From Escherichia phage Mangalyan, in sequence record OR449013: a DNA stretch of 64,000 nucleotides; one strand, given 5' to 3'. A program made the position numbers and the translations under genes. Below the pieces are notes generated by a model. The model did not search any database. It was not told the DNA's origin and was given only the letters and a program-made list of their open reading frames with translations. Of this stretch, positions 28,380 to 33,977 are shown piece after piece. Positions within the stretch are counted from its first letter, which is position 1, and the number at the start of each line of letters is the position of its first letter.

Positions 28380-28698
28380 CGTTTATGTTCGGGCAAGGTC
28401 GCTAGTCTTGCCCCGCCATTTTCAGGCAGCTGCATGTCTCCATGCAGACCAGACTATATCTTATAAGCGACAAAAACCGCTTACCCTCCCGTTTCGAATC
28501 GCTTGATTCTACGTCTCTCGACTAGTCGTTGAACGTTCATCCTCTCGGATGCTTCGCTGCGGATTATCTAAATTAACACACTGTTACCATACCTTCGATC
28601 TCTCTTCGAAGCCTCTATAATGTTACCATGACAGGTTGGTGGTGTCAATAATAAAGATTTCCCCGCAATTAGGGAGGTTTTACGAGAGCTACAAATTA
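28380..28698 (-). ncRNA. group I intron (ORF-less) in terminase large subunit gene
   Basis: Minus-strand P (AATTGCGGGGAAA, 28656-28671), Q (AATCCGCAGC, 28551-28565), R (GTTCAACGACTAGTC, 28520-28534), S (AAGATATAGTCTGG, 28449-28462); P1 pairing exon GAGGGU with intron GCUCUC; in-frame TAA right after exon 1. Confidence 0.8.
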
Positions 28699-29124
28699 AC
28701 CCTCATCGAAGCAAACCATGGTGTACTCAAGCCCTTGGTGGTTAAGCTTATCTTGTACATACTCCATGTGGCAGTATTTTACAACAGCCCCCTTTTTGCT
28801 TCTATCCCACTTGCCAGTGTTCGGATCAAACCGTGGAAAAATGAACTTATGATCCTTCTCTCTGAACTTTGGCTTAATGTTTTCAGGCAGATCACTATAA
28901 ATAGCTACTGCTTTAGGCCATAGTCCACCCTCACCTTCCAACTGTGGGGTTGTTCTTCGGAACATAACCACAGAGCTGTGGGGGTCATCAATAATTTTAA
29001 GCGGCATCAACTGCAAGAGGAACGACTTGCCAGACCCAGCTGCACCGCCGATTACCAAAATATCTGCATCGTTTTCGAGGATCATCTTCTGCTTTTCAGA
29101 ACACGGTCCGTAAATCTTAGACAT
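28699..29124 (-). CDS. terminase large subunit, exon 1 (ATPase domain)
   Basis: Walker A GGAAGSGKS and Walker B VCFDEG; ORF terminates in intron. Confidence 0.8.
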
Positions 29125-29411
29125 TAACCTCTCTCCTTTGGAAAAAGTGTTCTAATATAGTCTTGCAAAATGATCAATTTAGCTCTATCATTGCTACAAG
29201 ACAGATTATTGTCCCTCATAATGCCAGAGTTCACCGCATCTGGCGCACCTTTCTTCAAAGGCATAGCTTTAGCAGGTGGTTTCATGGCACCTTCTGGTGG
29301 TTTAACAATCAACCTTCCTACATCCGGAGGGTCAATCTTGTATTCTCTCTCAACGCTGGTTGCACACCCACATAATAACAAGCACGCAATAAACAGTGTA
29401 GCAACTCTCAT
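29124..29411 (-). CDS. putative o-spanin (outer-membrane lipoprotein)
   Basis: 95-aa ORF with signal peptide and Cys-rich lipobox-like LLLCGC; overlaps neighbours (ATGA). Confidence 0.5.
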   Translation of the reverse strand: MRVATLFIACLLLCGCATSVEREYKIDPPDVGRLIVKPPEGAMKPPAKAMPLKKGAPDAVNSGIMRDNNLSCSNDRAKLIILQDYIRTLFPKERG

Positions 29412-29806
29412 CGATCCTCCTGATTGATACTCTCATTATAAATATCTATAAGCTGATCAGGGAGTGTTGACTTATTACCTTCAGGTGATTGGAGGTAGAT
29501 AATCTGCTTTTCTCTACCTTCCCTCTCAGCTATATTTAATTTATCCTGCAGATCAGAAAGAGATTTTTCAAGGTTTTTAACCTCCTCTGCGTGGCCCATT
29601 TTAATTTTGTCTGCCTGCTTTTGTTGCTGATCAAGGATCCGTTCCCACTTTAACTCTGTTGCTGACACACCCTCTTGGTAGGCATCATTAAGCTTAGAGT
29701 TAAACCAATACACGGCCCCAAGATAAGCTGTACCTATAGCCGCTGCAAAAACTAAACCTTTTATGATCCCTCTATACCTACTCAGCCATGTTAAACCTGA
29801 AATCAT
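29408..29806 (-). CDS. putative i-spanin
   Basis: 132-aa ORF with N-terminal transmembrane segment then charged coiled-coil region; coupled to the lipoprotein gene. Confidence 0.5.
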   Translation of the reverse strand: MISGLTWLSRYRGIIKGLVFAAAIGTAYLGAVYWFNSKLNDAYQEGVSATELKWERILDQQQKQADKIKMGHAEEVKNLEKSLSDLQDKLNIAEREGREKQIIYLQSPEGNKSTLPDQLIDIYNESINQEDR

Positions 29807-30472: not shown

Positions 30473-30571
30473 GGTGCTAGGTGATGGAATCGAACCATCT
30501 ATGTATTCAACGACTACCTCGTCTATTTTCAGGATTAAAAATCCTCGCCCTTGCCAAAGGGCTTACCTAGC
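30473..30571 (-). ncRNA. atypical 99-nt tRNA-like gene (Lys-type UUU anticodon loop, ~30-nt variable region)
   Basis: Acceptor GCTAGGT/ACCTAGC, D-arm GCCC-TTTGGCAA-GGGC, anticodon loop TTTTTAA, canonical T-arm GATGG-TTCGATT-CCATC, but ~30 nt lie between anticodon stem and T-stem. Confidence 0.45.
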
Positions 30572-32339: not shown

Positions 32340-32918
32340 TCAGCGTTCGTAGTAGATTTTATTTAACATTACCTCATCTTTTGCAGAAAGAATACCGAGA
32401 TATGCATCACCGAATCTACCTGCAACAACCTCTGCATGATACATCACTTCGTTAATATCGTCAAGAGTGATAACTGGATGACCGTATCTCTCTGAGTATT
32501 GTCTCAGAGTGCGATGTAGAGAGTCATCATCATAGGCAGACTTTTTAATATCACAAACACGACGAATAGCCTTGATGTCGAAAAACCCTGTACGATACCA
32601 ACCAAGAAAAAGGTTTCGTGCAGTGTCAACATCCACATCAATACCATCAAGAACCTTATCTACAAGATAGCTGTCATCCTTTGGACCTGCTTCCTTAGTG
32701 CGAATGTAGTTGCCATCTTTTCCAGGTGACAGCTCCTTCTCATCACCAACCTGCATGCCATCATTTGGCGGTGTTAACCACTTATCCGGATGCTTACGAT
32801 CACGAGCGTTAGAATGATTACGCTGGAAACCGGGCTTCCACTTGAAAGTTTTCTCCATCTGTTCTTCATTCTGATAACGTTTTGCAATCTTTTCACGGTC
32901 ATCTTTGCGTGAACCCAT
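32340..32918 (-). CDS. hypothetical protein
   Basis: 192-aa ORF with GAGGAGG SD. Confidence 0.45.
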   Translation of the reverse strand: MGSRKDDREKIAKRYQNEEQMEKTFKWKPGFQRNHSNARDRKHPDKWLTPPNDGMQVGDEKELSPGKDGNYIRTKEAGPKDDSYLVDKVLDGIDVDVDTARNLFLGWYRTGFFDIKAIRRVCDIKKSAYDDDSLHRTLRQYSERYGHPVITLDDINEVMYHAEVVAGRFGDAYLGILSAKDEVMLNKIYYER

Positions 32919-33039
32919 AGCTGCCTCCTCTTCAAGTTATAGAAAAACTCACTGTATCGCTTTGTAACGAGCTTTTCTATCAAACTGGTGCGATTGCATT
33001 ACCTGGTATAGTTTATATAGCTGTGGAGCGATTTAGGGG

Positions 33040-33290
33040 CCTTCTTGTCAGTTTCCACACATAAACTTCATCCAAGCTCGCGCGGGAGACTCTCAACCGA
33101 CTCCTTACGGCGCTGGCAAGCTTTCGTCGGTGGTCCACATCAGTGCTCGGCCTTTGGCCTGCGCTATAGCTTCGCTCCCACACATGTTAACAGACCTGCA
33201 TGTGTGCACTTCTGTTATTGTGTGCACCAAGGAGGCCCGGCATCTCGCCCCTCGTAGGCGAGTGCCAATGAAGGGCCGACACTGCCCATA
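33040..33290. other. GC-rich ORF-free island B (candidate structured RNA or regulatory element)
   Basis: Visibly GC-rich versus the adjacent AT-rich segment; several hairpins (e.g. CTCGCC-CCTCGTA-GGCGAG at ~33244-33262); only a low-complexity shadow ORF. Confidence 0.3.
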
Positions 33291-33300
33291 GTAAGTAATA

Positions 33301-33420
33301 AATTTAAAACATGGTACTTAGGATCTAGTATATTCTACATAAGTTAAGTATATGTACTTAGTACCATAAGTACTAGATCTTTTATTTTTTTATTATTTAG
33401 TTATTTTAGTTATATTCTTT
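33301..33420. promoter_or_regulatory. AT-rich segment with inverted repeats (candidate DNA unwinding element or promoter region)
   Basis: Inverted repeat GATCTAGTA (33322-33330) / TACTAGATC (33371-33379), repeated GTACTTAG motifs, poly-T/A tracts. Confidence 0.4.
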
Positions 33421-33423
33421 ATG

Positions 33424-33505
33424 TGTCCGTATCACGGACAGTTAGTGTCCGTATTACGGGCAGATGTGTCCGCGTGACGGACAGTAGTGTCCGTATCACG
33501 GACAG
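33424..33505. repeat. four tandem 17-bp palindromes (TGTCCGT-N3-ACGGACA) at 21-22-bp spacing
   Basis: Copies at 33424-33440, 33446-33462, 33467-33483, 33489-33505 (first and fourth identical); a degenerate fifth follows. Confidence 0.75.
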
Positions 33506-33579
33506 TTAATAGTATCCGTTCCATGGCGAACATAAAACATACGAATCCTTATAGTATAGATATTTAAGTTTTTACTGGT

Positions 33580-33930
33580 CTAACCAGTTGTTGACATCCG
33601 AATAACTTCTTCTGGTGGCAAAACTTTGGAAAATGTGCATCTTTTACCTCTCCCTTGTGTGGATGTTTCAACCACTCCTGCACATTCTAAAGTTTTAACG
33701 CACGCTGCTGCTTTTGTTTTCTTTATCCCAACATCTGCTGCAATTTTCCTTGTGCTTGGTGTGAAGCGTGAATTTCCTCCAAGCTTATACCAGTTGTGCA
33801 GGTAGCAGTATACGATCTTGTCATACAAGTCAAGAACAACAACCTCCCCAGTTGTGTCATTCAAAACTTTTGACATAGATAGTATTTCAAGGGGGACTTT
33901 AAGATATAGCAGCTTATCCCCATCTTTCAT
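33580..33930 (-). CDS. hypothetical DNA-binding protein (candidate binder of the adjacent palindromic repeats)
   Basis: 116-aa ORF with AGGAG SD; helix-turn-helix-like segment TPSTRKIAADVGIKKTKAAACVKTLECAGVV; repeats lie ~75 bp 3' of its stop. Binding is inference. Confidence 0.4.
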   Translation of the reverse strand: MKDGDKLLYLKVPLEILSMSKVLNDTTGEVVVLDLYDKIVYCYLHNWYKLGGNSRFTPSTRKIAADVGIKKTKAAACVKTLECAGVVETSTQGRGKRCTFSKVLPPEEVIRMSTTG

Positions 33931-33977
33931 ATCTCCTGATTCTCCTTGTGTGGCAATTTTCTTTAAAATAGCAGGGA

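What the first reader, a model, noticed from the sequence alone, without database searches (positions are those of the whole stretch)
33301..33420. AT-rich palindromic segment next to the repeat array
About 120 bp of very AT-rich DNA with an inverted repeat GATCTAGTA...TACTAGATC and repeated GTACTTAG motifs, immediately beside the palindromic array and a GC-rich island. The juxtaposition of an easily melted tract with ordered protein-binding sites is the classic layout of a replication origin; a packaging signal or strong divergent promoter are alternatives.
Basis: inference. Interest (0 to 1): 0.45.

Follow-up and report, generated by a model that had tools for sequence, protein, structure and literature searches.

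The report
Likely replication origin of rV5-like phage
The AT-rich stretch is probably the easily melted part of a replication origin in an rV5-like E. coli phage, next to four binding-site repeats and the gene for a small initiator-like DNA-binding protein; no origin is described for this phage group in the papers I could search.

Summary
The window is a Vequintavirus (rV5-like E. coli myophage). Positions 33301-33420 are 80% A+T, the most AT-rich 120 bp of the window and of the whole rV5 genome. The inverted repeat and GTACTTAG repeats are present, but their palindromy is no better than chance.

The segment abuts four 17-bp palindromes (TGTCCGTATCACGGACA, spacing 22/21/21 bp) that occur nowhere else in rV5. 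It lies about 160 bp from gp79, a 116-aa winged-helix protein whose closest relatives by sequence and predicted fold are N-terminal domains of RepA_N-type initiators (Vibrio PLE RepA, PDB 4RO3; staphylococcal RepA).

The segment and repeats are 9-17 times more conserved than neutral sites. In a divergent relative, gp79, the repeats and the AT tract are replaced together by a non-homologous cassette of the same design. Two distant phages show the same layout.

No promoter of the phage's usual type and no DnaA box is present.

Best reading: an iteron-type origin whose unwinding element is 33376-33420 (confidence about 0.6). Origin activity is inferred, not shown. A single-site operator/promoter region is the main rival. 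It is a new member of a known kind.

The parts
33281..33967 (.). Exchangeable cassette holding gp79, a spacer, the repeat array and the whole AT-rich segment.
   Evidence: blastn of the divergent rV5-like contig L140 against the window. Homology runs 35536-34540 and 34542-33968, is absent for 33967-33281, and resumes at 33280-30965. In L140 this interval holds a 28%-identical protein, a different palindrome array and other AT-rich tracts.
33580..33930 (-). gp79 (rV5 ORF 79), 116 aa. A winged-helix protein of the DUF6945/HTH_36 type that resembles the RepA_N N-terminal domain. Proposed binder of the repeats and origin initiator. It has no C-terminal domain.
   Evidence: phmmer against PDB: best hit 4RO3, the N-terminal domain of PLE RepA, E = 3e-6. 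AlphaFold model pLDDT 79. Foldseek top hits 4RO3 (TM 0.65), then 4PQL, 5KBJ, 4PT7 and 4PTA. PHROG 12838 'replication initiation protein', plus weaker hits to three other initiator PHROGs. Pfam DUF6945 27.4 bits against a cut-off of 28, HTH_36 24.5 against 25. Homologues score above the DUF6945 cut-off.
33424..33504 (.). Four iteron-like 17-bp palindromes: 33424-33440 and 33488-33504 TGTCCGTATCACGGACA, 33446-33462 TGTCCGTATTACGGGCA, 33467-33483 TGTCCGCGTGACGGACA. Start-to-start spacing is 22, 21 and 21 bp.
   Evidence: No other copy with one mismatch or fewer in the window or in the whole rV5 genome. Three or four copies among genus members, differing by exactly one 21-bp unit. Nucleotide diversity 0.013.
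33376..33420 (.). T-rich tract proposed as the DNA-unwinding element. It starts 3 bp from the first palindrome. It contains GATCTTTTATTTT (33376-33388) and a tandem 9-mer TTTAGTTAT repeated twice (33396-33404, 33405-33413).
   Evidence: 33380-33419 is 92.5% A+T, unique in the window and in rV5. One variable column in 41, diversity 0.004. The only exact match in 64 kb to GATCTnTTnTTTT, with 0.10 expected. The T-run length varies from 6 to 8 between phages.
33301..33379 (.). Conserved AT-rich sub-element with four GTAC, two GATC, interleaved inverted repeats and GTACTTAG twice. Its role is unknown; an auxiliary protein site or a weak promoter are possible.
   Evidence: The GTAC cluster is unique in the window. 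Diversity 0.0145 over 33311-33379. Its 9-11-mers do not recur elsewhere in rV5. No ORF of 20 aa or more. Folding is no better than shuffles.
33030..33290 (.). Neighbouring GC-rich island, about 58% G+C. It is not part of the cassette. It is non-coding, conserved and predicted to be structured. Function is open.
   Evidence: Retained in L140 although the cassette is swapped. The rV5 'ORF 78' frame shows 3 synonymous against 17 non-synonymous differences. Fold z = -3 on both strands. Only one compensatory pair per alignment. No Rfam family match of any weight (none at gathering score).

Best explanation
The segment is the AT-rich half of an iteron-type replication origin of a Vequintavirus (rV5-like phage).

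Proposed mechanism; every step below is inferred unless marked otherwise:
1. Dimers of gp79, a small winged-helix protein related to RepA_N N-terminal domains, bind the four 17-bp palindromes at 33424-33504. That the palindromes lie 21-22 bp apart, two helical turns and so on one face of the helix, is read directly from the sequence.
2. The resulting protein-DNA complex stresses the adjoining 45-bp tract at 33376-33420 (92% A+T), which melts.
3. The phage's T7-gp4-like helicase-primase, encoded outside the window, loads on the opened strands and bidirectional replication begins.
4. Read-through transcription from the early promoters upstream of gp79 may help opening, as it does in lambda.
5. 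The left half (33301-33379), with its GTAC/GATC cluster, is conserved base by base. It probably binds a further factor or holds a weak promoter.

Shown by computation: the anatomy, its uniqueness, its conservation, the cassette exchange and the protein homology.
Inferred: gp79 binding, melting, helicase loading and origin firing.
For: - AT content: the most AT-rich 120 bp, and the only 40-mer at 90% A+T or more, in both the window and the whole rV5 genome.
- Repeats: four palindromic direct repeats at 22/21/21-bp spacing abut the tract and occur nowhere else in the genome.
- Protein: gp79's best PDB match by sequence is 4RO3 (E = 3e-6), the N-terminal domain of PLE RepA. PLE RepA is a proven initiator that binds semi-palindromic iterons at the PLE origin (PMC7145576). 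The predicted fold matches 4RO3 best, then four staphylococcal RepA initiator structures, ahead of generic regulators. PHROG names the family 'replication initiation protein'.
- Conservation: diversity is 0.0097 in the segment and 0.013 in the repeats. It is 0.044-0.118 in flanking non-coding DNA and 0.086-0.163 at four-fold degenerate sites of gp79 and gp77.
- Cassette exchange: L140 keeps the flanking genes at 88-94% identity but replaces 33281-33967 with a 28%-identical homologue, a different palindrome array and new AT tracts.
- Independent recurrences: Erwinia phage pEp_SNUABM_01 has an AT tract containing GATCTTTTTTGTTTT, then two TGCTCAATTTGAGCA-type repeats 23 bp apart, then the homologous gene. 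Pseudomonas phage phiPMW has three GATGGTGGACAAAATGTCCTA repeats beside its homologue. Both sit next to RNA ligase and kinase/phosphoesterase genes (tRNA genes also in phiPMW), as here.
- Gene orientation relative to the AT-tract-plus-repeat unit differs between rV5 and the Erwinia phage. This argues against a purely promoter-linked operator.
- Copy number varies between 3 and 4 by whole units, as iterons do. Lambda and Stx phages have 4 and 6 (PMC7466680).
- The global minimum of cumulative GC skew in rV5 is at about 67 kb, 1.7 kb away.
- There is an exact match to GATCTnTTnTTTT, which I recall as the E. coli oriC 13-mer consensus (the consensus is from memory).
Against: - No experiment shows initiation here. 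The rV5 paper could not define an origin, and every skew change it found coincides with a switch in transcription direction (PMC3606486).
- gp79 is an N-terminal domain only, with no recruitment domain. How a replisome would be brought in is unexplained.
- The same DNA-binding domain also serves a nuclease, ICP1 Odn: my family HMM hits ICP1 gp88 at E = 2e-13 (PMC8263062). The fold alone therefore does not prove initiator function.
- gp79 scores just below the Pfam cut-offs.
- In the Erwinia and Pseudomonas phages the repeats lie just upstream of the gene, where autoregulatory operators would also sit.
- An unwinding element needs only its composition, yet the whole 120 bp is conserved base by base. 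Something more specific is encoded.
- rV5 has a second candidate cis region outside the window: a 2.6-kb ORF-free, repeat-dense stretch at 104.0-106.6 kb.
- No DnaA box is present, so the site does not fit the plasmid-type origin.
Confidence: 0.6

Rival explanations
1. It is a transcription-control region. gp79 would be a repressor or activator that binds four tandem operators and controls a promoter inside the AT-rich segment. That promoter would drive the leftward transcript carrying the GC-island RNA or leader, gp77 and the tRNA genes. It could also act as a roadblock to read-through.
For: - gp79 is a winged-helix protein that most GenBank records call 'putative transcriptional regulator'.
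- In the Erwinia and Pseudomonas homologues the repeats sit just upstream of the gene, in a divergent promoter region.
- Base-by-base conservation of the AT segment suggests specific signals.
- There is a decent -10-like hexamer, TAGAAT, on the minus strand at 33337-33332.
- An AT-rich tract also precedes the conserved GC island in L140.
Against: - No match in the segment exceeds 9/12 to the sigma-70 consensus, and none has the perfect TTGACA found in all 25 annotated rV5 promoters.
- The one promoter-like hit of the simple scan (33582-33553) loses its essential -11 A in most relatives.
- The operator-like motif occurs at a single place in 138 kb, unlike most phage regulators.
- In rV5 the array lies downstream of gp79, so it cannot autoregulate at gp79's promoter.
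- gp79's closest relatives by sequence and fold are initiators, not regulators.
- Motifs from the segment do not recur elsewhere in the genome.
Confidence: 0.2
2. It is a packaging recognition (pac) site. gp79 would act like a small-terminase DNA-recognition subunit that binds repeated sites beside bendable AT-rich DNA.
For: - No small terminase is annotated in these phages; the two genes directly upstream of the large terminase are spanins.
- From memory: some small terminases use winged-helix domains on repeated sites, for example lambda gpNu1 at cosB, and the P1 pac site uses GATC-containing repeats.
Against: - The site is 4.2 kb from the start of the terminase gene, with tRNA genes and early-type genes between.
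- Fold hits are RepA_N initiators; no terminase appears among the top 50 matches.
- The genomes are reported as circularly permuted, with no defined end here (PMC3606486, PMC8407724).
- The homologues in Erwinia phage pEp_SNUABM_01 and phiPMW also sit among nucleotide-metabolism and tRNA genes.
Confidence: 0.06
3. It is a cis site for another DNA transaction: partition or centromere-like pairing, a recombination hotspot, or a decoy or target in conflicts with satellites.
For: - The same DNA-binding domain is used by ICP1 Odn to attack a satellite's origin (PMC8263062).
- The cassette is swapped between close relatives, as expected under conflict.
Against: - gp79 has no nuclease or ATPase domain.
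- The phage is lytic, and none of the searches run here turned up a plasmid state or a ParA/ParB-type gene near the site.
- No copy of the repeats or AT tract exists in 5,426 complete E. coli genomes, so no satellite with matching sites was found.
Confidence: 0.05
4. It is a chance AT-rich spacer with no function of its own.
For: The inverted repeat and its folding are within chance expectation.
Against: - It is the compositional extreme of the genome.
- It is 9-17 times more conserved than neutral sites.
- It co-inherits with gp79 and the repeats as one cassette.
Confidence: 0.02

Closest known systems
Bacteriophage lambda ori with O protein (and Stx-phage origins)
   Same: Lambda has four iterons, each an imperfect 19-bp inverted repeat, directly flanked by an AT-rich tract that is unwound. 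The initiator is encoded at the same locus. Iteron number varies between relatives, 4 against 6 (PMC7466680). Here there are four 17-bp palindromes at a 21-22-bp period, a 45-bp tract of 92% A+T 3 bp away, and 3 or 4 copies among relatives.
   Different: The lambda origin lies inside the O gene; here it is about 75 bp downstream of the gene. O has a C-terminal domain that recruits P-DnaB; gp79 has none. gp79 shows no relation to O and instead resembles RepA_N. This phage encodes its own helicase-primase (PMC3606486).
Vibrio cholerae PLE RepA and the PLE origin
   Same: This is gp79's closest protein relative by sequence (E = 3e-6, 28% identity) and by predicted fold (TM 0.65). PLE RepA binds semi-palindromic iterons in a non-coding origin and depends on the replisome of ICP1, a phage that shares polymerase and structural genes with rV5 (PMC7145576, PMC3606486). 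Replication modules are exchanged among PLEs (PMC8263062), as the cassette is here.
   Different: PLE RepA has a C-terminal domain. Its iterons are about 30 bp, three in number, and remote from repA. PLE is a satellite, not the phage itself. Origin function is proven for PLE and only inferred here.
RepA_N plasmid initiators of Firmicutes (pSK41, pTZ2162; PDB 4PQL, 5KBJ, 4PT7, 4PTA)
   Same: The N-terminal winged-helix fold is shared: Foldseek E = 8e-4 to 2e-2, ranked just after 4RO3. These proteins bind semi-palindromic direct repeats as dimers (PMC7145576).
   Different: The RepA_N proteins have a host-specific C-terminal domain (PMC7145576); from memory, their origin lies inside repA. gp79 has only 19-20% identity and does not reach any Pfam RepA_N hit. 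The central spacer of the rV5 palindromes is ATC/ATT/GTG rather than a poly-A tract; phiPMW's repeats do have AAAA.
Iteron plasmid origins of Gram-negative bacteria (RK2 oriV, P1 oriR, pSC101, R6K)
   Same: From memory: 17-22-bp iterons at a period of about 22 bp, an adjacent AT-rich unwinding element with 13-mers resembling GATCTnTTnTTTT, GATC sites, and in RK2 a GC-rich stretch beside the AT-rich region. Here there is one exact 13-mer match, two GATC, and a GC-rich island next door.
   Different: Those initiators belong to the Rep_3/WH1-WH2 family and the origins carry DnaA boxes. No DnaA box lies between 32664 and 33914, and gp79 is a different, single-domain protein.
ICP1 Odn (gp88), the origin-directed nuclease
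   Same: It shares the DNA-binding domain family: my gp79-family HMM hits ICP1 gp88 at E = 2e-13. Odn recognises iterons (PMC8263062).
   Different: Odn carries a nuclease domain and attacks a foreign origin. gp79 has no second domain, and its candidate sites lie in its own genome beside its own gene.

Membership tests
Iteron-type replication origin (lambda ori / iteron replicons) | Several direct repeats of about 17-22 bp, phased with the helix | tested here: met
   Four 17-bp palindromes with start-to-start spacing of 22, 21 and 21 bp. They are unique in the 138-kb rV5 genome.
Iteron-type replication origin (lambda ori / iteron replicons) | AT-rich unwinding element directly beside the repeats | tested here: met
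   33380-33419 is 92.5% A+T and lies 3 bp from repeat 1. It is the compositional extreme of the window and of the genome. Actual melting was not tested.
Iteron-type replication origin (lambda ori / iteron replicons) | A cognate initiator encoded nearby that binds the repeats | tested here: inconclusive
   gp79 lies about 75 bp away and is homologous to an iteron-binding initiator domain. Protein and repeats change together in L140, the Erwinia phage and phiPMW. Binding itself cannot be tested with these tools.
Iteron-type replication origin (lambda ori / iteron replicons) | Replication starts at the site, or the site supports replication of a linked DNA | not testable with these tools
   This needs marker-frequency sequencing, 2D gels or origin cloning. 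The cumulative GC-skew minimum lies 1.7 kb away but is confounded by transcription direction (PMC3606486).
Iteron-type replication origin (lambda ori / iteron replicons) | DnaA boxes (plasmid subtype only) | tested here: not met
   No TTATNCACA match with one mismatch or fewer between 32664 and 33914. Lambda-type origins do not require them.
RepA_N / DUF6945 initiator proteins (for gp79) | N-terminal winged-helix DNA-binding fold of the family | tested here: met
   phmmer against 4RO3, E = 3e-6. Foldseek: 4RO3 TM 0.65, then 4PQL, 5KBJ, 4PT7 and 4PTA. Model pLDDT 79.
RepA_N / DUF6945 initiator proteins (for gp79) | Score above the curated Pfam threshold for DUF6945 | tested here: inconclusive
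   gp79 scores 27.4 bits against a cut-off of 28. Homologues pass: phiPMW 42.6, Erwinia 32.2, P0011 31.9.
RepA_N / DUF6945 initiator proteins (for gp79) | C-terminal domain that recruits host or phage replication proteins | tested here: not met
   gp79 is 116 aa. The model is a single winged-helix domain followed by one short helix. Relatives P0009 and P0011 have longer acidic tails ending in APF.
RepA_N / DUF6945 initiator proteins (for gp79) | Binding sites are semi-palindromic direct repeats | tested here: met
   The form is TGTCCGT-NNN-ACGGACA. The family property is described in PMC7145576. The poly-A centre typical of the family is absent here but present in phiPMW.
Sigma-70 promoter / divergent promoter region | -35 and -10 hexamers with 16-18-bp spacing, comparable to the phage's other promoters | tested here: not met
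   The best matches in 33250-33600 are 8-9 of 12, and none contains TTGACA. All 25 annotated rV5 promoters start with TTGACA. The scan found 1 site against 1.7 expected. Phage-specific middle or late promoters cannot be excluded.
Packaging (pac/cos) site | Adjacent to terminase genes and coinciding with virion DNA ends | tested here: not met
   The site is 4.2 kb from the start of the large-terminase gene. Genomes are reported as circularly permuted with no fixed ends (PMC3606486, PMC8407724). Read pile-ups could not be examined.
Structured RNA family (Rfam) | Match to a curated covariance model | tested here: not met
   There is no gathering-level hit in 32900-33600. Only chance-level hits appear at E of 10 or less.

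The most novel reading that the evidence does not exclude
gp79 would be a minimal initiator: the RepA_N-type N-terminal domain alone, opening a sequence-specific unwinding element without any recruitment domain. The interval 33281-33967 would be an origin-specificity cassette that Vequintaviruses exchange. That exchange could be driven by conflict with origin-targeting nucleases or origin-mimicking satellites, as seen for ICP1, PLE and Odn. The neighbouring conserved GC-rich structured island would be a priming or loading element shared by different cassettes.
Probability: 0.2. Interest if true: 0.65.

Novelty: new member of a known kind. Interest (0 to 1): 0.42.

Why it matters
rV5-like phages are among the most commonly isolated E. 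coli phages and are used in biocontrol and therapy work. Their origin of replication has not been defined: the rV5 genome paper tried and could not (PMC3606486).

A concrete candidate of about 690 bp, with a named binding protein, makes the question directly testable. It would help in building reporter or engineered phages and in reading coverage profiles.

It would also extend the RepA_N/DUF6945 initiator family from satellites and Gram-positive plasmids to lytic phages of enterobacteria. The cassette swap gives a natural experiment on initiator-origin specificity.

Tried and rejected
- Metagenome scan with the degenerate pattern GTGTCCGNNNNNACGGACAG. The pattern was too loose.
- IMG/VR scans with gp79 peptides and with the exact palindrome. 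The only hit was an unrelated coding-sequence match, L007.
- Word-indexed and exhaustive protein searches with gp79. They gave few relatives. P0009 and P0011 lie on contigs too short to show context.
- Rfam at gathering and at permissive thresholds: nothing credible.
- Hairpin or cruciform in the AT segment. Rejected: folding is no better than shuffles, and the arms are interleaved.
- rV5 'ORF 78' in the GC island as a real gene. Rejected: 3 synonymous against 17 non-synonymous differences.
- gp77 as a split-off C-terminal half of a RepA_N protein, with the origin in the middle. Not supported: gp77 has no Pfam or PDB match, and its 50%-identical homologue P0018 sits in a different context with no such module.
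- DnaA boxes: none. An IHF core (WATCAA) was looked for by eye and not seen.
- GATC enrichment. Not meaningful: GATC is over-represented genome-wide, 351 observed against 242 expected.
- Satellites or prophages carrying the same repeats in 5,426 complete E. coli genomes: none.
- A gp79-like gene beside ICP1's mapped theta origin. Only gp88/Odn scored well; ORF112 gave a weak E = 1e-3 hit.
- Similarity between the rV5 and Erwinia AT tracts. Suggestive (both contain AGATCTTTT) but not separable from low complexity.

Full report
**Identity of the window.** The 2.4 kb around the finding matches 119 GenBank phage records at 90-99% identity. All are rV5-like E. coli myophages of the genus Vequintavirus. 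Window 33301-33420 corresponds to about 65,030-65,150 of phage rV5 (DQ832317). All genes left of about 35,000 are on the minus strand and all genes to the right are on the plus strand. The finding lies in a 661-bp gene-free gap between two minus-strand genes. These are gp77 (32340-32918, unknown function) and gp79 (33580-33930), which records annotate as 'putative transcriptional regulator' or 'replication initiation protein'.

**Checking the observation.**
- The segment is 80% A+T, about 5 sd above the window mean.
- It is the most AT-rich 120 bp of the window and of the whole 137,947-bp rV5 genome.
- 33380-33419 is 92.5% A+T, the only 40-mer at 90% or more in either.
- The exact 9-bp inverted repeat, a second 11-bp repeat with one mismatch, and the two GTACTTAG copies are real.

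The palindromy is not special. A 9-bp inverted repeat appears in 12% of shuffles. The two repeat pairs are interleaved (A B ... A' B') and cannot form one hairpin. Single-strand folding is no better than shuffles, z = -0.5 to -1.1.

Other features do stand out.
- Four GTAC fall within 60 bp. This is the only such cluster in 64 kb, in a genome that avoids GTAC.
- A tandem 9-mer, TTTAGTTAT twice, lies at 33396-33413.
- GATCTTTTATTTT (33376-33388) is the only exact match in the window to GATCTnTTnTTTT, with 0.10 expected. I recall that pattern as the E. coli oriC 13-mer consensus.
- No ORF of 20 aa or more lies in 33296-33418.

**The neighbours.** Three bases to the right begin four 17-bp palindromes, TGTCCGT-NNN-ACGGACA, with starts 22, 21 and 21 bp apart. 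With one mismatch or fewer they occur nowhere else in the window or in the rV5 genome.

About 75 bp further on is the 3' end of gp79. Evidence on gp79:
- Pfam places it just under the cut-offs of DUF6945 and HTH_36.
- PHROGs puts it in family 12838, 'replication initiation protein', with weaker hits to three other initiator families.
- Its best match among all PDB sequences is 4RO3 (E = 3e-6). Barth et al. identify 4RO3 as the N-terminal DNA-binding domain of RepA of the Vibrio cholerae satellite PLE. RepA is a RepA_N-family initiator shown to bind semi-palindromic iterons at the PLE origin (PMC7145576).
- An AlphaFold model (pLDDT 79) matches 4RO3 best (TM 0.65). Next come four staphylococcal RepA initiator structures, all ahead of generic MarR/CodY-type regulators.
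- gp79 is only 116 aa. It is the DNA-binding domain alone.
- The same domain family also occurs in ICP1 Odn, a nuclease aimed at PLE iterons. My family HMM hits ICP1 gp88 at E = 2e-13 (PMC8263062). The fold therefore shows iteron-type DNA recognition, not initiation as such.

**Conservation.** I aligned 13 genus members spanning 90-99% identity.

| Region | Nucleotide diversity |
|---|---|
| AT segment (33301-33420) | 0.0097 |
| T-rich tract (33380-33420) | 0.004 |
| Repeats (33421-33508) | 0.013 |
| gp77 leader | 0.044 |
| GC island | 0.053 |
| Spacer after the array | 0.118 |
| Four-fold degenerate sites, gp79 | 0.086 |
| Four-fold degenerate sites, gp77 | 0.163 |

The segment is thus 9-17 times more constrained than neutral sites. 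It is also more conserved than the flanking genes overall. The changes that do occur are telling: T-run length varies from 6 to 8, and whole 21-bp units are lost, giving three repeats instead of four in A135, BP9 and nomo.

**Cassette exchange.** A Logan contig (L140) from a divergent rV5-like phage keeps RNA ligase, kinase, phosphoesterase, the GC island and gp77 at 84-94% identity. It has no nucleotide homology to window 33281-33967. In that interval it carries:
- a 143-aa protein only 28% identical to gp79 (E = 7e-7);
- directly after it, about six different palindromes of the form TCTGATACATATTTGCATCAGAT;
- further AT-rich tracts, 75% A+T over 60 bp.

So gp79, the repeats and the entire AT-rich segment form one replaceable unit. 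The GC island lies outside it.

**Distant recurrences.**
- Erwinia phage pEp_SNUABM_01 (Henunavirus, a sister genus) has an AT-rich tract containing GATCTTTTTTGTTTT. Two TGCTCAATTTGAGCA-type repeats 23 bp apart follow, and then a 107-aa homologue.
- Pseudomonas phage phiPMW has three GATGGTGGACAAAATGTCCTA repeats, whose palindromic core GGACA-AAA-TGTCC has the A-rich centre typical of RepA_N sites. A purine-rich, moderately AT-rich stretch and a 136-aa homologue follow.
- Both homologues pass the DUF6945 threshold.
- Both modules sit beside RNA ligase and kinase/phosphoesterase genes (tRNA genes also in phiPMW), as in rV5.
- The order of AT tract then repeats is kept, while the gene is flipped relative to rV5.

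**Interpretation.** This anatomy is that of an iteron-type origin. Lambda's origin likewise has four imperfect 19-bp inverted repeats flanked by the AT-rich tract that is unwound, and iteron number differs among relatives (PMC7466680).

I propose the following, all of it inferred:
1. gp79 dimers bind the phased palindromes.
2. The complex opens 33376-33420.
3. The phage's T7-gp4-like helicase-primase (PMC3606486) loads there.
4. Read-through transcription from the upstream early promoters may assist. No terminator is predicted between them and the site.

The site lies 1.7 kb from the global minimum of cumulative GC skew. That minimum coincides with the divergence of transcription, as the rV5 authors noted for all their skew changes, so it carries little independent weight.

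**Rivals.**
- *Promoter/operator region.* This is the main rival. The repeats lie upstream of the gene in the two distant phages, and base-by-base conservation of the AT segment implies more than easy melting. Against it: all 25 annotated rV5 promoters begin with a perfect TTGACA, and nothing in the gap does. The best matches are 8-9 of 12, and the one scan hit is not conserved. The site is single in the genome, and in rV5 it lies downstream of gp79. The origin and promoter roles could also coexist.
- *Pac site.* Unlikely. The site is 4.2 kb from the start of the terminase gene, the genomes are circularly permuted (PMC3606486, PMC8407724), and no terminase appears among the fold hits. The small terminase of this group is, however, unidentified.
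- *Chance.* Excluded by the conservation.

**Open points.**
- gp79 has no recruitment domain.
- The role of the GTAC/GATC half (33301-33379) is unknown.
- The GC island is non-coding ('ORF 78' shows 3 synonymous against 17 non-synonymous differences). It is predicted to fold well on both strands (z = -3). It has only one compensatory pair per alignment.
- rV5 also has a 2.6-kb ORF-free, repeat-dense region at 104-106.6 kb, outside the window. It could be a second origin or a pac region. ICP1 has both an early theta origin and a late origin beside pac in an ORF-less gap (PMC7145576).

**Novelty and verdict.** I found no description of a Vequintavirus origin. Some records already label gp79 'replication initiation protein' through PHROGs. 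The kind of element is classical, so this is a new member of a known kind. It has two unusual traits: an initiator made of the N-terminal domain only, and exchange of the origin as a cassette. Confidence that it is an origin is about 0.6. Confidence that the AT segment works together with gp79 and the repeats, whatever the function, is about 0.85. Interest is moderate.

Noticed in passing
window 33030-33290: A GC-rich island (about 58% G+C) lies between the AT segment and gp77. rV5's annotated 'ORF 78' inside it shows no coding constraint (3 synonymous against 17 non-synonymous differences). The island folds with z = -3 on both strands. It is conserved even in L140, where the adjacent cassette is replaced. 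Only one compensatory pair appears per alignment and there is no Rfam hit. It may be a structured leader or non-coding RNA, or a single-strand priming signal.
   Followed up: partly
L006 4013-6618 (rV5 104013-106618; outside the window): This is the 2.6-kb ORF-free 'non-coding' box of the rV5 paper, at a convergent transcription junction. It is packed with dispersed repeats: an AGTTTAC-containing family, an exact 20-mer repeated twice, and a perfect 18-bp inverted repeat 149 bp apart. There is no Rfam hit. It is a candidate second cis-acting region, either pac or a late origin.
   Followed up: partly
L140 2271-3134 (Logan ERR9710502 contig): A divergent rV5-like phage carries a different cassette at the gp79 position: a 143-aa protein 28% identical to gp79, followed by about six TCTGATACATATTTGCATCAGAT palindromes. 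It also has an extra KilA-N/ANT gene inserted between the kinase and phosphoesterase genes.
   Followed up: yes
window 30473-30571 (minus strand): ARAGORN calls a 99-nt tRNA-like gene with a four-base anticodon (atcc). Rfam's tRNA model scores it 37.5 bits. The rV5 record annotates nothing in the corresponding gap of the tRNA cluster. It may be an intron-containing or unusual tRNA, or a pseudogene.
   Followed up: no
window 28430-28708 (minus strand): A group I intron (Rfam, 83.8 bits) interrupts the large-terminase gene. The rV5 record shows the gene joined from three pieces, with an HNH homing endonuclease inside. This is already known for rV5.
   Followed up: no
window 29124-29806 (minus strand): The two genes just upstream of the terminase large subunit look like spanins: a lipoprotein signal in one and a transmembrane segment plus coiled coil in the other. 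Neither looks like a small terminase. No small terminase is annotated in this phage group.
   Followed up: partly
PLSDB record CP057073.1 (137,565 bp): An rV5-like phage genome, with gp79 97% identical, is filed as a non-mobilisable E. coli 'plasmid' from pooled cattle faeces. It is probably a phage co-assembled with its host or a carrier state.
   Followed up: no
proteins P0009 and P0011 (metagenomic gp79 relatives): These longer relatives (194 and 217 aa) end in acidic tails, ...DCDEAPF and ...DEDPDAPF. From memory, these resemble the C-terminal protein-interaction tip of bacterial SSB. This hints that family members contact replication proteins through the tail that gp79 lacks.
   Followed up: no
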